Origin: Barthelona sp. PAP020 | Lineage: Eukaryota | Reading direction: 5' to 3' | NCBI GenBank assembly: GCA_040182905.1 | Contig: JARQWU010000020.1 | Location: 49,553-69,552 of the forward strand | DNA: 20,000 nt | The notes under the pieces: generated by a model | Database searches by the model: none | What the model saw: only the letters and a program-made list of their open reading frames with translations | What the model was told of the DNA's origin: nothing | In this document: positions 10,846-20,000 of the stretch, piece after piece | How the letters are laid out: each line of letters starts with the position of its first letter | Numbering within the stretch: position 1 is the first letter of the stretch | Program-made: the position numbers and the translations under genes

Positions 10846-11007
10846 TTGACCACATTTAGTAAATATTAGTTCTGATAGTGTTGTTTTTATTCTTTCTTTG
10901 ACATAATTTTGCAATATTTTTAATTTCAGTCTCAGACTTTCCTTCTGAGTAAATTATCCATCCGTTTTTTTTCTTTTATTGTTGTTATTTTGGAATAATT
11001 ACAAGAA

Positions 11008-11178
11008 ATGGTTTGAGTTGCCTGTGTAATTCCTCTTTTATATGCTTTAATCCTGTTTATTATCAAATCGATCACATCAAAGTTTACAAAAAAACCTGCC
11101 AATAGGGCTAACAATGAGAACTCTGATGATGACACTTGTGATGGAAATTTTAATGGTGGATGAGGGTCATTTTTCTAA
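11008..11178 (+). CDS. Candidate small single-pass membrane selenoprotein (56 aa; in-frame TGA at codons 3 and 52), UPF0729/C18orf32-like
   Basis: Reads MVUVACVIPLLYALILFIIKSITSKFTKKPANRANNENSDDDTCDGNFNGGUGSFF*, with TGA at 11014-11016 and 11161-11163 and TAA at 11176-11178. Has a UxxC motif, hydrophobic helix, GGUG near the C-terminus, and a downstream SECIS-like hairpin. Confidence 0.65.
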
Positions 11179-11210
11179 ATATCTTCATTTGAATCAATTT
11201 TTACATTTTT

Positions 11211-11290
11211 TTTATCTTTTCTGTGACGTTGATTACCCTTGTATCCTAGCGGAGATGTTCTTGACTGAGAATAATGAAAAATAAGATAAA
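11211..11290 (+). promoter_or_regulatory. SECIS-like 3'-UTR stem-loop (GUGA core variant)
   Basis: Core GTGAC (11223-11227) opposite TGAG (11266-11269). Helix II GTTGA (11228-11232) pairs with TTGAC (11261-11265). Possible apical mini-stem TCC-TAGC-GGA. Helix I TTTATCTT (11211-11218) pairs with AAGATAAA (11283-11290). Canonical apical AA is absent. Confidence 0.5.
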
Positions 11291-11348: not shown

Positions 11349-11819
11349 ATGAAGCCCATATACAAATTCACTCCCCGATCACGACATTATTCAAAAAGCA
11401 AAACACCAATACCAGACAATTTGAAAAGATTTGATACTTCTGTTGGTGTTTCTCCATATTTGATTGAGAAGTCAAAAGAAGATAAAATAAATGATAATAT
11501 AGTGAAGAAAACTGCTTCAGACAAAAATAAAAAGACAAGTTTATCAAGACTTGTTGAGAAAGCAACAGCAACAAAGCATGGTGCCTTACCAATTGAAGAA
11601 GAAAATTTAATCCAAAACCAACAATATAATCGATCCAATGATACTGTATATTTTGAAAATTCATACAAAGAACGAGTTTACAAGTCACTGCCAACAAGAA
11701 AAAACATTGCACAAACTTCCAAAATGAAATTACAAAAATTCAAGCACATAACAAGATCTATATATGATTTAACACAACAAATGGAAGACACAAATCGTTG
11801 GATTAGTTCTACAATGTAA
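11349..11819 (+). CDS. Hypothetical basic, low-complexity protein (156 aa)
   Basis: ORF ending TAA. ATG 11349 is preferred over 11274 because the upstream extension is T-rich spacer-like sequence overlapping the SECIS-like hairpin. Confidence 0.65.
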   Translation: MKPIYKFTPRSRHYSKSKTPIPDNLKRFDTSVGVSPYLIEKSKEDKINDNIVKKTASDKNKKTSLSRLVEKATATKHGALPIEEENLIQNQQYNRSNDTVYFENSYKERVYKSLPTRKNIAQTSKMKLQKFKHITRSIYDLTQQMEDTNRWISSTM

Positions 11820-12079: not shown

Positions 12080-12958
12080 CTACAATTTATAACGGTCTGC
12101 CATTTCGTCGATGTTGAAAACTCTTTCCAAACAAGAGATGATGTTGTTTCCATCACATAAATAGATTATTTTGTCATCTATAATATATTTCACATACTCC
12201 ATGTCGTCAACACAAGTTATTTTGTCATTGAGATGATATGCTTGTTTAAAGGAGACGGGGCATGGGATTTTGAACACCGTGGTATCTTTAGGGTCAATGA
12301 AATAATCAAAAACACGCACTCCATTGCCAATCAGAACGTAAACCAATGAATTCATGCCGGTATAAATGCAAGCAGGTGTGCTTAACAGCTTTGAAATAGC
12401 ACGCTCACCTTCATACCCAGGGCCACCCATTATTAAAAATGTGTTCATTGAGGACAAACCAACTGCATCACAAGTCAACGCCTCCTCAAGAAAACCAGCG
12501 ATAAAAAAACTGCTGAGGTTTATGATAAATTCTGGTTTTTCGCCATTCATGGCAACTATATATCGTTTTGTCGACTTGTCAATGATAGGATAGGGTGTAT
12601 ATACAAAATTGTGGGAGAACTTGATGAACTCCTTGTAGGCAACGGCATCAATACCATCGGCCAACCATAAATAAGCTTCGTGCGGAAAGTAGGTCTCCAC
12701 TGTGGAGTTGTACCTCCCAATTTGTCTCGGTTTTCCAAAATTCAACAATGATGCTGTTTCGACAATACTAATCGTATTTAATGTGTAGTTTCTTTTATAA
12801 TCAGACACCTCGGTGTATCTGTGCTGGTTGACAATTGTTTGATTGTTTCTTTCCAAATCGATAAGAACGCCAATTGTGTACGAGCAAATTGATATTAATA
12901 TTACAAGACTGAAGGTAATAAATCTAGTGTTTAATCCATGACTGTTCGAACTTTCCAT
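12080..12958 (-). CDS. Membrane-anchored protein with a divergent class I glutamine amidotransferase-like (DJ-1/PfpI or catalase C-terminal) domain, paralog B
   Basis: N-terminal hydrophobic anchor FITFSLVILISICSYTIGVLI. Motifs YLWLADGIDAV, FLIMGGP, LIGNGVRV and LCDG...CL are shared with the adjacent paralog. Confidence 0.7.
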   Translation of the reverse strand: MESSNSHGLNTRFITFSLVILISICSYTIGVLIDLERNNQTIVNQHRYTEVSDYKRNYTLNTISIVETASLLNFGKPRQIGRYNSTVETYFPHEAYLWLADGIDAVAYKEFIKFSHNFVYTPYPIIDKSTKRYIVAMNGEKPEFIINLSSFFIAGFLEEALTCDAVGLSSMNTFLIMGGPGYEGERAISKLLSTPACIYTGMNSLVYVLIGNGVRVFDYFIDPKDTTVFKIPCPVSFKQAYHLNDKITCVDDMEYVKYIIDDKIIYLCDGNNIISCLERVFNIDEMADRYKL

Positions 12959-12991: not shown

Positions 12992-13819
12992 TTACATTGC
13001 TTCAAAAACTACATCAAGACATGCAAACGTGTCATGGCCATCGCAAAGATCTACTTTGCGGTTTTCATTGCCAATAACAATGTGCGATTCGCTGCTGCAA
13101 CCGGAAACATTATAAACTTCCCAATACAGAGAATCCTTATCACAAGGAACTATAGTTTCATCCGAATTGAACTCGCCCATGCACACCAAACGAACAGCAT
13201 TCCCGATAAGAGTAACATTTGTTTTGCTGAAAATGCTGACTCCTGACTGCAAAAATGAGGTCACTGCACGTTCTCCGTTAAATAATGGACCGCCGAATAT
13301 TATCACATTATCATAGTCTTCCCAAATGACATCATCGACGTGAATTCCACGTGAAAACATCTTTAAATCAATTAAAAACTCAGGTTTGACTCCTTTGCTT
13401 GCAATCACGTAGTTGCCATACGTGTCAGAATAAATAGGTATAGGTTCGATTTTGTTGTGAATGCAAAACAACATTATTTCTTCATACACCACCGCATCAA
13501 CGCCATCAGCAAGCCAAATCGCTATTTTAGGTGTATGTGCAAATGAGTGGATCTTTATATTGTGTGTGTTGTTTGCTGTTCTTGATGAATCGTCATTCAT
13601 GGCGTCCAAAAGGGCAAAATCTCCCAAAGGCATCGTATTAAACATTCCATTGACTTCATAAACGGAAAATCCGATAAAATTATCAACATTATTGGGTTGA
13701 TTGACGTCGTTTTTGAAATGAACAACATAAAATGCGATAAAAGAGCTGATACTGATCAAGAGCAGCTGTACGAATAAATCAAGCTTTCGAATGCTTCTGT
13801 CATTGGTCAAAAAAGGCAT
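12992..13819 (-). CDS. Membrane-anchored protein with a divergent DJ-1/PfpI- or catalase-GATase-like domain, paralog A
   Basis: First ATG at 13819; anchor LFVQLLLISISSFIAFYVV. KIAIWLADGVDAV, DDVIWEDYDNVIIFGGP and LIGNAVRLV match the three GATase1-fold motif positions (KVAILLADG, D..DYDA.IIPGG, AICHG/AVGEG). Confidence 0.7.
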   Translation of the reverse strand: MPFLTNDRSIRKLDLFVQLLLISISSFIAFYVVHFKNDVNQPNNVDNFIGFSVYEVNGMFNTMPLGDFALLDAMNDDSSRTANNTHNIKIHSFAHTPKIAIWLADGVDAVVYEEIMLFCIHNKIEPIPIYSDTYGNYVIASKGVKPEFLIDLKMFSRGIHVDDVIWEDYDNVIIFGGPLFNGERAVTSFLQSGVSIFSKTNVTLIGNAVRLVCMGEFNSDETIVPCDKDSLYWEVYNVSGCSSESHIVIGNENRKVDLCDGHDTFACLDVVFEAM

Positions 13820-14081: not shown

Positions 14082-15017
14082 ATGTCTGACGAAAAAGTTC
14101 ACAAATGCATTATTATTGGATCAGGTCCTGCTGGTTGCACAGCAGCACTTTATGCTGCCAGAGCAGGGATGAAACCAATTCTTATTACTGGATACGATAA
14201 GGGTGGTCAATTAAATCTCACTTCTGAAGTCGACAATTGGCCCACCGCTTTCGAAACAATTACTGGATCTGATTTGGTTACAGATATCGAAAAGAATGCC
14301 AAGCGTTTTGGTGCTGAGTTCGTCATGAATCAAGTCAAGGAGGTTGACTTTTCTTCCAGACCTTTCAAGTTAGTTACCGACAGTGAAACCTATTTGGCAC
14401 ATACTGTCATTATTTGTACTGGTGCTTCAGCCAGATGGTTGGGATTGGAAAGTGAACAAAAGTTCCGCAATCTCGGTGTTTCTGCCTGCGCCACCTGTGA
14501 TGGTTTTTTCTACCAAGGCCAAGAAGTTGTTATTGTTGGTGGTGGAAATACTGCTGTTGAAGAAGCCATTTATCTTTCCAACATCTGCTCTAAAGTCACC
14601 CTCATTCACCGTAGAGATAAGTTACGTGGTGAAAAGATCATGCATGAAAGGTTGTTTGCCTGTGAAAACGTTGAATTCGCCTGGAACTCTGGTCTTGATG
14701 AGGTTCTTGGTGATGATAATGGCGTAACTGGTGTCAGAATCAAATCAACAGTCGACGGATCAACACGAGAAATTCCCTGCATGGGTTGTTTCATTGCAAT
14801 TGGACATTCTCCCAATACCGCTATCTTTGAAGGCCAACTTGAGATGAAAGGTGGATACATTGTGACTAGTGCTCCATCTACTGCCACTTCCGTTGACGGT
14901 GTGTATGCTGCTGGTGATGTTATGGATTACACTTATCGTCAAGCTATTACTTCCGCTGGTACTGGTTGTAAGGCTGCTCTTGATGCTCAAAAGTACCTTG
15001 AAGCCCACAGTTTGTAA
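14082..15017 (+). CDS. trxB: Low-molecular-weight NADPH thioredoxin reductase, proteobacterial type (311 aa)
   Basis: FAD motif IIGSGPAG, redox CATC (VSACATCDGFFY), NADPH motifs VGGGNTAVEEA and HRRDKLR, and AAGDVMD.YRQAITSAGTGC.AALDA. True start ATG 14082; the track's upstream extension is A-rich spacer. Confidence 0.97.
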   Translation: MSDEKVHKCIIIGSGPAGCTAALYAARAGMKPILITGYDKGGQLNLTSEVDNWPTAFETITGSDLVTDIEKNAKRFGAEFVMNQVKEVDFSSRPFKLVTDSETYLAHTVIICTGASARWLGLESEQKFRNLGVSACATCDGFFYQGQEVVIVGGGNTAVEEAIYLSNICSKVTLIHRRDKLRGEKIMHERLFACENVEFAWNSGLDEVLGDDNGVTGVRIKSTVDGSTREIPCMGCFIAIGHSPNTAIFEGQLEMKGGYIVTSAPSTATSVDGVYAAGDVMDYTYRQAITSAGTGCKAALDAQKYLEAHSL

Positions 15018-15057
15018 TTTGATAAAAAGTAGTTTGTTTGTTTTTTTAAGTATGTAG

Positions 15058-16908
15058 ATGTTAGATCCACTACGGCTGACTACAGAATCTACTGAGATGC
15101 TTACGTCTCCGAATACACTGAGAACGACATCCAGTTGGAACGACAGTATGTATTTTGAGGGATTTTTGGAAAAGTATCCGTTTTTAAGTGAATTGTTCCC
15201 GGAAATGCAGCAAAATTTGCCCTACTTTTCACGAAACCAACAGATAAAAATTGAAAGCGCGGCAAAAAGGCTGCAAAAATATTTGAACAAAGAAGCATCC
15301 ATAAAGTTCGATTTTGCTGCGTTGACCAACAGTTTACCGTCGGATAGTGAGTACAGCACGGGCTGTAATGCATCAACAGTGAAAAAACGACTGGAAAACG
15401 TTGAGAATTGCATGAATATTATTTTTCAACAAATAGACATTGCAAAGAAGCACATGTCGGTGTTATTACGTCAAAACGACAACAAAACTGCAGATGAGAC
15501 CGCAGAATCCTCTCCCTCGTATTTGAACGGGCAAAAGGAACCCCACAGATCTAGTTCGTCAATTTCACCATCTTTCTCATTTAGCTTGCCGATGTTCAGT
15601 TCACATAATCCAGTTTCAACAGACAAACGAGCGAAGATTAGTTTTGACTCAACAAAAATGACCGCGGATGACAGCTCGAATATCCCATCCCCTAAAGCAA
15701 GCAGAAAGAGTAAGTTACTGAAGAAAAGAGAGCACGCGTTATTCCAAGCAATCAAAAAAGGAGAGGCACAGAAATTTGAACAGCTGCTCGCTGATATGTA
15801 CCCTTTGAGATCACTAAAGGACGCACGAAAGAATAATATTGTTCATTTTGCAATACTGTCTGGCCGTTCCAAAATACTTTCGATCATTATTAACAAAATG
15901 AAGCAACCGGGCTACGAGAGCGATTTTGTGATGATGGACAGACGAAATGATTTTGGAGAGTTTCCGGTTCACCTTGCAATAAAGAGTCGCAACGTCGATA
16001 TTATTGGTTTGATTCTTCCTTTGATCGGCAACATCAATGCTTTGGACAGTGATGGAAACACGCCGTTGCACTTGGCCATTCATAACGTTGTTGGGCAAGT
16101 AGAACATGATTATTTCCCCGTAACAAATGTGGTTGCCAACCGTGCCGATGTCAACGCCAAGAACAACCTGAATTTGACACCGTTGCATTTGGCTGCACAA
16201 AAAGGCGATGAAAGTTGTGTTTGTATTTTATTGAACAATTGCGCTGCGGTGAATTGTGAAAATTTGCAGGGGTTGACGCCGCTACATTTTGCTGCTGAAC
16301 AGGGACATTTTGAGACGTGTTCATTGTTGTTACAAGCTGGGGCAAATCCCAATGCATTGTCCTCTTTACACTACACGCCTCTTCATTTAGCGGCAAGGCA
16401 TGGGTACGTTCGAACGGTTGAACTTCTTGTAAAATATGGTGCAAACATTAATGCAATGGATAAATATGGATGGACTGTTTTACACGAAGCGTCGATGCTC
16501 GGAAGAAGCACAAAAGGTTTGAAGAACAGCTATTCTCAGTCAACCTCGTCGAGGGACCGGATCAAGGAATATGAAAAATTGAGAAAGGGAAAGAAAACTA
16601 GAATAAAAAACGACACAAGGAACTTTGAAGAAGTTATTGCCTTTTTAACAAGGAAAGGCGCAAAAGTCACAGCAAGAGACAACTTTCATCACAATCCAAT
16701 GGAAGTTTCTCAAAGCCTTCAATTAAAAACATCCTTCAATGACCTTGCACAGTTCGAAATAATGAACGTTAGCCCTCCAAAACTTCTTCACAAAACAATG
16801 AAATCCAACAGTTTAATCCCTCCCTTGTCAGCTAGATTTCTGTCTTCAACAACTAATAGTCTGGACCGTTCCAAAAAAACACGGAAGCGTCTCAATACAT
16901 ATCGATAG
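15058..16908 (+). CDS. Ankyrin-repeat protein (about 8 repeats) with a Ser-rich N-terminal region
   Basis: GNTPLHLA, LTPLHLAAQKG, GLTPLHFAAEQGH, YTPLHLAARHGY, GWTVLHEA and others; exact start codon uncertain. Confidence 0.9.
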   Translation: MLDPLRLTTESTEMLTSPNTLRTTSSWNDSMYFEGFLEKYPFLSELFPEMQQNLPYFSRNQQIKIESAAKRLQKYLNKEASIKFDFAALTNSLPSDSEYSTGCNASTVKKRLENVENCMNIIFQQIDIAKKHMSVLLRQNDNKTADETAESSPSYLNGQKEPHRSSSSISPSFSFSLPMFSSHNPVSTDKRAKISFDSTKMTADDSSNIPSPKASRKSKLLKKREHALFQAIKKGEAQKFEQLLADMYPLRSLKDARKNNIVHFAILSGRSKILSIIINKMKQPGYESDFVMMDRRNDFGEFPVHLAIKSRNVDIIGLILPLIGNINALDSDGNTPLHLAIHNVVGQVEHDYFPVTNVVANRADVNAKNNLNLTPLHLAAQKGDESCVCILLNNCAAVNCENLQGLTPLHFAAEQGHFETCSLLLQAGANPNALSSLHYTPLHLAARHGYVRTVELLVKYGANINAMDKYGWTVLHEASMLGRSTKGLKNSYSQSTSSRDRIKEYEKLRKGKKTRIKNDTRNFEEVIAFLTRKGAKVTARDNFHHNPMEVSQSLQLKTSFNDLAQFEIMNVSPPKLLHKTMKSNSLIPPLSARFLSSTTNSLDRSKKTRKRLNTYR

Positions 16909-17048
16909 CCTTTGTAAAATCTAATAATTTGGTGATTTTTTTTTGTGTTGCATTTATGTTTTCTGGGGTAATAGAATGGAGGAGAAGCACTTCAAGAAAA
17001 TGTTTGGAAAATAAATGAATAAAAAATACAAATACATTTTACAAATTA

Positions 17049-19823: not shown

Positions 19824-19914
19824 TAAAACTTCTGTTGTTTGTAAAACACACTTCCTTTTTTTCATTTATAATTTTTTTTTTGTTCATAGACTTTGTTTCT
19901 GAGAACTTGGGATT

Positions 19915-19972
19915 TTACTTGGGGGAGGGATCGAACTTGTCTTGAGCGTAATTGATGTCGAAGGGCAGTCTT
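19915..19972 (-). CDS. Possible terminal exon of a minus-strand gene continuing beyond the window (...RLPFDINYAQDKFDPSPK*)
   Basis: Minus strand reads T24-AAAG (polypyrimidine tract plus AG), then codons strongly biased to C/G endings as in trxB, ending at a TAA overlapped by AGTAAA. Confidence 0.4.
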
Positions 19973-19976
19973 CTTT

Positions 19977-20000
19977 AAAAAAAAAAAAAAAAAAAAAAAA
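19977..20000 (+). repeat. A homopolymer (24 nt or more) running off the window end
   Basis: Directly visible. Confidence 0.95.

What the first reader, a model, noticed from the sequence alone, without database searches (positions are those of the whole stretch)
11008..11178. Hidden membrane microprotein with one or two selenocysteines (UxxC and GGUG), missed by ORF calling
Seen: ATG GTT TGA GTT GCC TGT GTA ATT CCT CTT TTA... reads cleanly for 56 codons if TGA is decoded: MVUVACVIPLLYALILFII, a basic/acidic linker, then NGGUGSFF-TAA. It fills an otherwise empty gap between MED14 and the next gene. Known: UxxC is the classic Sec redox motif, and near-terminal GGUG ends the single-pass ER selenoproteins SELENOK and SELENOS. 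The UPF0729/C18orf32 family begins MVCIPCIVIP or MVCVAC (recalled), which puts the first TGA exactly on a conserved Cys. Inference: this is a Sec version of that family, possibly with a second Sec on the other side of the TM helix. I know of no described selenoprotein with this architecture.
Basis: partly seen in the sequence, partly recalled or inferred. Interest (0 to 1): 0.92.

Follow-up and report, generated by a model that had tools for sequence, protein, structure and literature searches.

The report
Tiny hidden membrane selenoprotein gene
A 171-base reading frame in a single-celled eukaryote contains two internal TGA stop codons and is followed by a hairpin-like signal, so it likely encodes a 51-56-residue membrane protein carrying one or two selenium atoms, which would be a selenoprotein family not found in the papers searched.

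Summary
11008-11178 (+) runs ATG to TAA over 56 codons, with TGA at codons 3 (UxxC) and 52 (GGUG), just downstream of MED14. TGA is an ordinary stop here (4 of 13 ORFs), so this is not a changed code. The frame looks coding: codon score 11.9 bits, against a gap maximum of 6.4 and a gene mean of 11.8. It has the T-rich flanks of its neighbours, and rival frames do worse. New here: 32 nt after the TAA lies a SECIS-like element (11211-11290) with a GUGAC/UGAG core bounding a 47% G+C island. It is atypical (9-bp helix II, CC instead of AA) and fails Rfam and all four published SECISearch patterns. No homologue was found in any search. The UPF0729/C18orf32 link rests on recall and on one unchecked earlier AI note about another protist; Pfam gave no hit. 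SELENOK/S were not matched and MSP differs. No genome or RNA data were available, so Sec machinery and expression are untested. Estimates: about 0.68 for a selenoprotein with Sec3; about 0.6 of that for a second Sec at codon 52, which lies borderline close to the SECIS.

The parts
10968..11007 (+). T-rich 5' flank like that of the neighbouring genes
   Evidence: 22 T of 40; the 12 other genes with a start in the window have 15-27; rival starts have 7, 9 and 13
11008..11178 (+). Candidate CDS, 56 codons plus TAA if both TGA are decoded (51 codons if TGA52 is the stop)
   Evidence: codon log-odds 11.9 bits vs genes 11.8 +/- 10.3 (n=87 chunks) and gaps -9.8 +/- 7.1, max 6.4 (n=96 overlapping chunks); best of six frames, 5.0 vs 0.0 or less
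11014..11025 (+). Codon 3 TGA (predicted Sec) and the U-V-A-C (UxxC) motif
   Evidence: sequence; Sec decoding inferred
11011..11064 (+). Uncharged hydrophobic segment, residues 2-19, predicted membrane helix
   Evidence: Kyte-Doolittle 19-mer 2.96; AlphaFold2 single-sequence helix 3-26, pLDDT 81-85 over residues 1-20
11065..11106 (+). Basic, partly amphipathic stretch (4 K, 1 R), predicted cytosolic by the positive-inside rule
11107..11160 (+). N/D-rich linker predicted disordered, with Cys44 (11137-11139)
   Evidence: block-mean pLDDT 41-55 from residue 21 on, no helix or strand beyond residue 26
11155..11178 (+). GG-TGA-G-S-F-F-TAA tail; codon 52 TGA (11161-11163) is a second Sec or the real stop
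   Evidence: GG follows it; 0 of 13 true stops are followed by GG, chance about 0.014; 47 nt to helix I and 60 nt to the SECIS core
11211..11290 (+). Atypical SECIS-like element: helix I 11211-11221/11276-11290; core GUGAC 11223-11227 with UGAG 11266-11269; helix II 11228-11236/11257-11265 (7 of 9 pairs); unpaired CC 11237-11238; mini-helix 11241-11246/11251-11256
   Evidence: hand model -5.0 kcal/mol; 0 of 2000 shuffles match core, helix II and helix I together; 0 of 2000 give as G+C-rich a 47-mer; fails the 4 published SECISearch1 patterns as re-implemented and Rfam
7390..10845 (+). Upstream neighbour, MED14-like (context only)
   Evidence: ESM Atlas 0.96, 216 of 256 features shared
11349..11819 (+). 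Downstream ORF, 156 aa, unknown (context only; the frame is also open from ATG 11274)
   Evidence: no family; the 25 codons from 11274 score -6.4

Best explanation
The stretch 11008-11178 is likely a real one-exon gene whose codon-3 TGA, and probably its codon-52 TGA, would be read as selenocysteine under the direction of an atypical SECIS-like hairpin at 11211-11290, giving a 51-56-residue protein predicted to be anchored in the ER or lipid-droplet membrane by one helix. Inferred mechanism: the N-terminal UxxC sits at the start of the helix as a membrane-surface selenol/thiol redox pair. The flexible cytosolic tail carries Cys44 and GGU52G. If the protein sits monotopically, as reported for human C18orf32, the tail could swing to the UxxC and exchange electrons with it, as the C-terminal Sec arm of thioredoxin reductase does. 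If it spans the membrane, the two Sec lie on opposite faces. The protein is most probably a Sec form of the C18orf32/UPF0729 type of microprotein (recalled resemblance, not shown).
For: Shown: intact frame with two TGA in Sec-like contexts. TGA is a normal stop in this organism: it ends 4 of 13 ORFs, and long ORFs cover 79% of the window. Coding score at gene level and above every gap chunk, 0 of 96. Best of six frames (the true frame wins in 72 of 86 gene chunks). Sense-strand T-rich flanks on both sides, like the neighbours. Motif combination in 2 of 5000 simulated gaps. A 47-nt island of 47% G+C in a 23% G+C gap, the highest among the 11 gaps of 47 nt or more, bounded by RUGA and NGA, with 5 stacked pairs above the core and an 11-bp helix I. 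The core letters UGAcG..CuGA agree with the SECISearch3 model consensus printed in its supplement. G before the core is the rule in Ostreococcus (PMC2375036). CC in place of AA is allowed (PMC3753652). No canonical SECIS was detected in Spironucleus ESTs although these anaerobic flagellates appear to use Sec (PMC2874811; Sec machinery in PMC3916229), so odd elements have precedent. One hydrophobic helix followed by basic residues.
Against: No homologue in any search: word search near and longer lengths, phmmer over 1.84 billion representatives, Pfam (best YxzE, E 0.003, 19 bits vs cutoff 40), NCBIfam, PDB, viral and GTDB loci (53, 94), DNA patterns with chance hits only (44/45, 95/98). So conservation of TGA/Cys was not shown. 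The SECIS-like element fails all four SECISearch1 patterns and passes only when helix II is allowed 9 nt, a relaxed pattern with 175 matches in the window. It would be grade C by hand (1.4, without the Covels term). Its 3' core ends in G rather than A/U. It has no AA, the upper stem is only -1.9 kcal/mol, the free fold does not form it (z -0.5 to 0.1), and Rfam SECIS models do not score it. 1 of 13 other 3' flanks passes the loose core test. All null thresholds were set after seeing the sequence. Most of the codon score comes from residues 36-56 (7.1 of 9.5 bits). TGA52 is 47-60 nt from the element, against a minimum of 51-111 nt measured for human DIO1. Sec machinery and expression were not testable.
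Confidence: 0.66

Rival explanations
1. One-Sec variant: codon 3 is Sec, but TGA52 is simply the stop codon, giving a 51-residue protein ending NGG. (A sub-case of the main reading, counted within it.)
For: TGA ends 4 of 13 ORFs. TGA52 is only 47 nt from helix I and 60 nt from the core, at the lower limit of the 51-111 nt minimum spacing. A TAA a few codons later is expected in AT-rich DNA.
Against: GGG follows the TGA (GG chance about 0.014; 0 of 13 true stops are followed by GG), making G-G-U-G, the near-terminal motif of SELENOK/S (recalled).
Confidence: 0.27
2. Pseudogene or sequencing error: a small Cys-containing membrane-protein gene that gained two nonsense changes, or an assembly error at one or both TGA.
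For: No homologue and no expression data. The SECIS-like element is weak. A decayed-looking 1.8-kb stretch and a poly-A run exist in the same window.
Against: Both breaks are TGA, with no TAA/TAG and no frameshift. Both sit in Sec-like motifs (2 of 5000). An independent RUGA/GA-bounded G+C island lies 32-45 nt after the stop.
Confidence: 0.12
3. Chance frame in a non-coding gap. The G+C island is something else: a compact box C/D snoRNA (GUGACGU ... CUGA with a 3-bp terminal stem and 3-nt bulge) or a promoter element of the gene at 11349.
For: TGA-containing frames of 50 or more codons occur in 2695 of 5000 simulated gaps. The island ends in a perfect D box and resembles part of archaeal sR39 at chance level (E 1.2). 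SECIS and C/D boxes share the kink-turn fold (established knowledge).
Against: Codon score above all 96 gap chunks. The C-box position has C and U where U and A are expected. The island is only 47 nt, with a 6-nt D guide, and pairing continues past the core as in SECIS helix II. Its motifs TGACG, GTGAC and CTAGC occur in no other gap.
Confidence: 0.13
4. The coding signal belongs to another frame: a standard-code 56-aa ORF 11114-11284 (+), or a minus-strand gene from 11309 with a 30-nt GT..AG intron (11204-11175) removing its TAG.
For: Both need no recoding. The + ORF scores 7.0 bits. A GT..AG can be drawn around the minus-strand stop.
Against: The + ORF scores only 1.4 bits outside its overlap with the candidate and has an A-rich upstream flank (7 T of 40). 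The minus-strand pieces score -2.0 and -3.6 in the frame model and have A-rich flanks (9 T of 40, 13 T of 60). Neither the + ORF nor the 44-codon minus ORF is in the protein collection (weak, since only 3 of the 15 exact look-ups of neighbouring ORFs were found). The + ORF has no Pfam hit.
Confidence: 0.06
5. TGA is reassigned genome-wide (Trp or Cys), so this is an ordinary Cys or Trp microprotein.
For: Such codes exist in some protists (established knowledge).
Against: TGA ends 4 of 13 ORFs, three of them followed by clearly T-rich flanks. 5260 codons of long ORFs, including 1151-codon MED14, hold 29 TGG and 88 TGY and cover 79% of the window without needing TGA.
Confidence: 0.03

Closest known systems
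C18orf32 / UPF0729 (Pfam DUF4512; accession and motif recalled)
   Same: Small size (human 76 aa), N-terminal hydrophobic then amphipathic helix, disordered C-terminal half, ER and lipid-droplet location (PMC12797721, passages). A Met-Val-Cys-x-x-Cys start is recalled, not seen in any call.
   Different: 56 aa; longer purely hydrophobic segment (2-19, vs 7-15 in human); TGA at the first Cys position; GGUG tail; SECIS-like element. No profile or pairwise match was obtained. No Sec form was seen in the papers searched.
SELENOK / SELENOS (single-pass ER selenoproteins)
   Same: One membrane helix, disordered tail, Sec within five residues of the C-terminus in a GGUG context (family features recalled).
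   Different: No Pfam match; tail N/D-rich rather than G/P/R-rich; extra N-terminal UxxC; much shorter.
MSP, the protist membrane selenoprotein (Lobanov 2007, PMC2375036)
   Same: Membrane selenoprotein of protists; the Dictyostelium protein has two Sec.
   Different: About 180-235 aa, several hydrophobic segments, conserved G-S/A-U-C-W-P motif; none of these is present here. Ostreococcus hypothetical proteins 1-3 also differ.
Earlier scan finding e1-7377966 (Telonema-like protist; unchecked AI note)
   Same: Codon-3 UGA, N-terminal UxxC, C18orf32-like, small membrane protein.
   Different: 76 residues, two helices, spliced, textbook SECIS; no second Sec mentioned. Its sequence was not visible, and the by-sequence look-ups found no look-alike.

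Membership tests
Eukaryotic selenoprotein gene | In-frame UGA inside an otherwise coding frame, with UGA a stop elsewhere in the genome | tested here: met
Eukaryotic selenoprotein gene | SECIS element in the 3' UTR (RUGAN/NGAN core, helix I and II, unpaired AA or CC) | tested here: inconclusive
   Core, helix I, CC and G+C island present; passes the SECISearch3 length and energy filter by hand, grade C; fails the four SECISearch1 patterns and Rfam
Eukaryotic selenoprotein gene | UGA aligned to Sec or Cys in homologues, with conservation on both sides | tested here: inconclusive
   No homologue retrieved
Eukaryotic selenoprotein gene | Sec machinery (tRNA-Sec, SecS, PSTK, eEFSec, SBP2, SPS) in the genome | not testable with these tools
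   No whole genome held; no tRNA in the window
Eukaryotic selenoprotein gene | Transcript carrying both the ORF and the SECIS; selenium incorporation | not testable with these tools
   No sequencing run listed
C18orf32 / UPF0729 (DUF4512) | Match to the Pfam profile | tested here: not met
   No such family among the hits at E up to 10; HMMER filters drop weak matches; the presence of this profile in the library copy was not confirmed
C18orf32 / UPF0729 (DUF4512) | N-terminal Met-Val-Cys-x-x-Cys followed by Pro and a hydrophobic helix | tested here: inconclusive
   The candidate has M-V-U-x-x-C-x-I-P and a helix, but the family motif is recalled; no member sequence could be retrieved
C18orf32 / UPF0729 (DUF4512) | Short protein with an N-terminal membrane helix and disordered C-terminal half | tested here: met
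SELENOK / SELENOS | Profile match | tested here: not met
SELENOK / SELENOS | Single membrane helix with near-terminal GGUG | tested here: met
   if TGA52 is decoded; family feature recalled
MSP (protist membrane selenoprotein) | G-S/A-U-C-W-P motif in a multi-helix protein of about 180-235 aa | tested here: not met
   Compared by eye with the published alignment
Box C/D snoRNA (for 11223-11269) | Boxes C and D, guides of 10 nt or more complementary to rRNA or snRNA | tested here: inconclusive
   Perfect D box; C box with 2 mismatches; no Rfam family above chance; the organism's rRNA is not available

The most novel reading that the evidence does not exclude
A new eukaryotic selenoprotein family: the Sec form of the C18orf32/UPF0729 lipid-droplet and ER microproteins, here with two selenocysteines in only 56 residues (UxxC at the head of the membrane helix, GGUG on a flexible tail) and decoded by a non-canonical CC-type SECIS. 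It would be among the smallest multi-Sec proteins known, and it would point to the N-terminal cysteine pair of the human disease gene C18orf32 as a redox site.
Probability: 0.3. Interest if true: 0.85.

Novelty: new variant of a known kind. Interest (0 to 1): 0.62.

Why it matters
New eukaryotic selenoprotein families are rare. Homology-based finders (Seblastian needs conserved residues on both sides of the Sec) and ORF callers would miss a gene whose third codon is TGA. Sec nearly always marks a catalytic redox residue (established knowledge). If the protein is a C18orf32/UPF0729 relative, it gives a direct, testable hypothesis for a poorly understood human lipid-droplet protein linked to a neurodevelopmental disorder: that its N-terminal cysteines are a redox pair. 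The element would also be an example of a divergent SECIS in a deep-branching flagellate, usable as a seed for finding that organism's other selenoproteins.

Tried and rejected
Whole-genome search for Sec machinery: no genome held. Expression: no run was listed; this is not evidence either way. Homologue searches, all blank: word search; phmmer, 0 at E 0.001; little power for a 56-aa divergent query. DNA pattern scans: 10 of 10 metagenome matches and 4 of 4 viral matches were chance readings with no similarity beyond the pattern. A language-model feature search of the candidate itself was not obtained, which leaves the UPF0729 link open. No fold search was run: the model is a single helix plus disorder (mean pLDDT 62). 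A second SECIS-like hit at 16932 was rejected: poly-U paired with purines, 3' core AGAA. No second copy of the element's 5' arm is in the window. No stable hairpin follows codon 3 (-3.0 kcal/mol at best). An intron removing codon 3 (GT at 11011, CTAAC at 11108, AG at 11118) was considered and rejected by inspection: it has a GAG acceptor and would delete the helix, leaving a 15-20-residue peptide. The main text of one paper on free-living anaerobic flagellate genomes does not contain 'seleno' (PMC11316075, passages). One search had one training ORF off by one base; it was redone, which are the values cited. The sigma-70 scan is irrelevant to a eukaryote.

Full report
Setting. The window is from a compact, intron-poor, AT-rich eukaryote. 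Thirteen long ORFs cover 79% of it. They include CLUAP1/IFT38 (so the organism is flagellated), a dual-specificity phosphatase, ankyrin proteins and a bacterial-type thioredoxin reductase (TIGR01292, 387.7 bits vs cutoff 343). The best non-self CLUAP1 hits are about 40% identical, so no close relative was found. No genome and no sequencing run were available. The 13 ORFs end in TAA (6), TGA (4) and TAG (3), so TGA is a normal stop.

The observation. 11008-11178 reads ATG to TAA with TGA at codons 3 and 52. The upstream gene is MED14 by Atlas features. A frame like this is not rare by itself (2695 of 5000 simulated gaps), so I asked whether it looks like a gene. Its codon log-odds, from a model trained on the rest of the window, is 11.9 bits. 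Leave-one-out gene chunks average 11.8 (n=87) and gap chunks -9.8, with a maximum of 6.4 (n=96, overlapping). In a frame-discriminating model it scores 5.0, against 0.0 or less for the other five frames; the true frame wins in 72 of 86 gene chunks. Its flanks are T-rich on the sense strand: 22 T in the 40 nt before ATG (genes 15-27) and 32 T in the 60 nt after TAA (genes 19-34). The rival starts at 11114, 11274 and 11309(-) have 7, 13 and 9. In simulation, 2 of 5000 gaps reach the codon score and 2 of 5000 have UxxC/CxxU with a near-terminal G.?U (post hoc criteria). Against: most of the score comes from residues 36-56.

The 3' element. The 170-nt gap after the TAA is 23% G+C but holds a 47-nt island of 47% G+C. 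It is the richest among the 11 gaps long enough to test (next 40%) and is unmatched in 2000 dinucleotide shuffles. The island begins with GUGAC (11223) and ends with UGAG (11269), the SECIS core arrangement. Above the core are five stacked pairs, two mismatches and two more pairs, then unpaired CC(UU) and a mini-helix of 5 pairs with one mismatch, closed by a tetraloop. Below it lie an internal loop and an 11-pair helix I with a 4-nt bulge. Of 2000 shuffles, 54 have the core plus five pairs, 12 also have the upper-stem energy, and 0 also have helix I (post hoc). One of 13 other 3' flanks passes the first test, through poly-U pairing.

The element is not textbook. My re-implementation of the four SECISearch1 patterns (PMC3753652, supplement file 2 part 1) finds nothing. 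A match appears only if helix II may be 9 nt, and that pattern has 175 matches in the window without an energy filter. By the published SECISearch3 code (part 4) it passes the stem, loop and energy filter by hand (-5.0 vs -4) and grades C without the Covels term. Rfam does not score it as SECIS, and unconstrained folding does not form it. G before the core is the rule in Ostreococcus (PMC2375036 section 8) and CC loops are accepted. In Spironucleus ESTs no canonical SECIS was detected despite signs of Sec use (PMC2874811 passages; machinery in PMC3916229 passages). A box C/D snoRNA shares this kink-turn and is the main rival for the island, but the C-box letters, the short length and the extended helix favour SECIS.

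The protein. Residues 2-19 are uncharged and hydrophobic (KD 2.96). Residues 20-33 carry five basic residues and some amphipathy, and the rest is predicted disordered (AlphaFold2 without alignment: helix 3-26, mean pLDDT 62). The positive-inside rule puts the tail in the cytosol (inference). The codon after TGA52 is GGG; 0 of 13 real stops are followed by GG, and base composition gives about 0.014, which favours a second Sec. The spacing to the element (47 nt to helix I, 60 to the core) is borderline against the 51-111 nt minimum for human DIO1, which favours a stop. I put the second Sec at about 0.6 given the first.

Mechanism (inferred). A UxxC pair at the head of a membrane helix would act as a selenol/thiol redox switch or small reductase at the ER or lipid-droplet surface. 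A GGUG on a flexible tail that also carries Cys44 would act as a mobile redox arm. With a monotopic topology like that reported for C18ORF32 (hydrophobic residues 7-15 inserted, amphiphilic 18-37 on the monolayer; PMC12797721 passages), all four sites could be cytosolic and form a relay within one protein. With a spanning helix, the two Sec would lie on opposite faces. Neither topology nor activity was tested.

Relatives. Every homology search was blank, and the pattern scans gave only chance matches. MSP and the Ostreococcus hypothetical selenoproteins are clearly different (PMC2375036 supplement 2, parts 7-8). I could not see its sequence, and the by-sequence look-ups found no link. It is a lead that the architecture may recur, not support.

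Print. I saw no described selenoprotein of this kind in these searches: C18orf32 + selenoprotein (5 papers, listing only), DUF4512 (0), UPF0729 (8, listing), C18orf32 (40 of 123 listed), membrane selenoprotein terms (20 of 50 listed), selenoproteome/UxxC terms (2), and a term search of the Seblastian candidate supplement (no C18orf, CVIP or CIVIP). Most subscription papers are not in the library. Supplements that may bear on the family motif were not seen: the picture-only file of PMC12797721, the ortholog alignment of bioRxiv 10.64898/2025.12.23.696201 (passages only) and file 1 of PMC3753652.

Verdict. Probably a real, unannotated membrane selenoprotein gene with an atypical SECIS (about 0.66). 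Family membership, the second Sec, the Sec machinery and expression remain unshown.

Noticed in passing
window 14082-15017 (+): Bacterial-type low-Mr thioredoxin reductase (TIGR01292 above cutoff), G+C 43% against about 30% for most genes; no Sec; typical of anaerobic protists (recalled). About 3 kb from the candidate, probably coincidence.
   Followed up: partly
window 12080-12958 and 12992-13819 (-): Tandem paralogues (local alignment score 246 over about 270 aa), each with an N-terminal hydrophobic segment and a shared WLADG(I/V)DAV motif; no Pfam family for either.
   Followed up: partly
window 2636-4433: 1.8-kb stretch without an ATG ORF of 80 aa or more, with fragmentary Lys-rich frames; possibly a decayed mobile element; no significant Pfam hit in the three + frames with stops as X.
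   Followed up: partly
window 15050-15085 (+): GTATGT ... GCTGAC TACAG, resembling a 36-nt spliceosomal intron, overlapping the first ATG (15058) of the ankyrin gene; may be chance.
   Followed up: no
window 19886-20000: G+C-rich island (up to 53% in 47 nt) next to a poly-A run that reaches the window end; may be the end of a minus-strand gene or an assembly edge.
   Followed up: no
window 7390-10845 (+): MED14 so divergent that Pfam misses it while Atlas features give 0.96.
   Followed up: yes
window 11349-11819 (+): 156-aa Lys-rich ORF with no family; the frame is open from ATG 11274, but those 25 codons look non-coding.
   Followed up: partly
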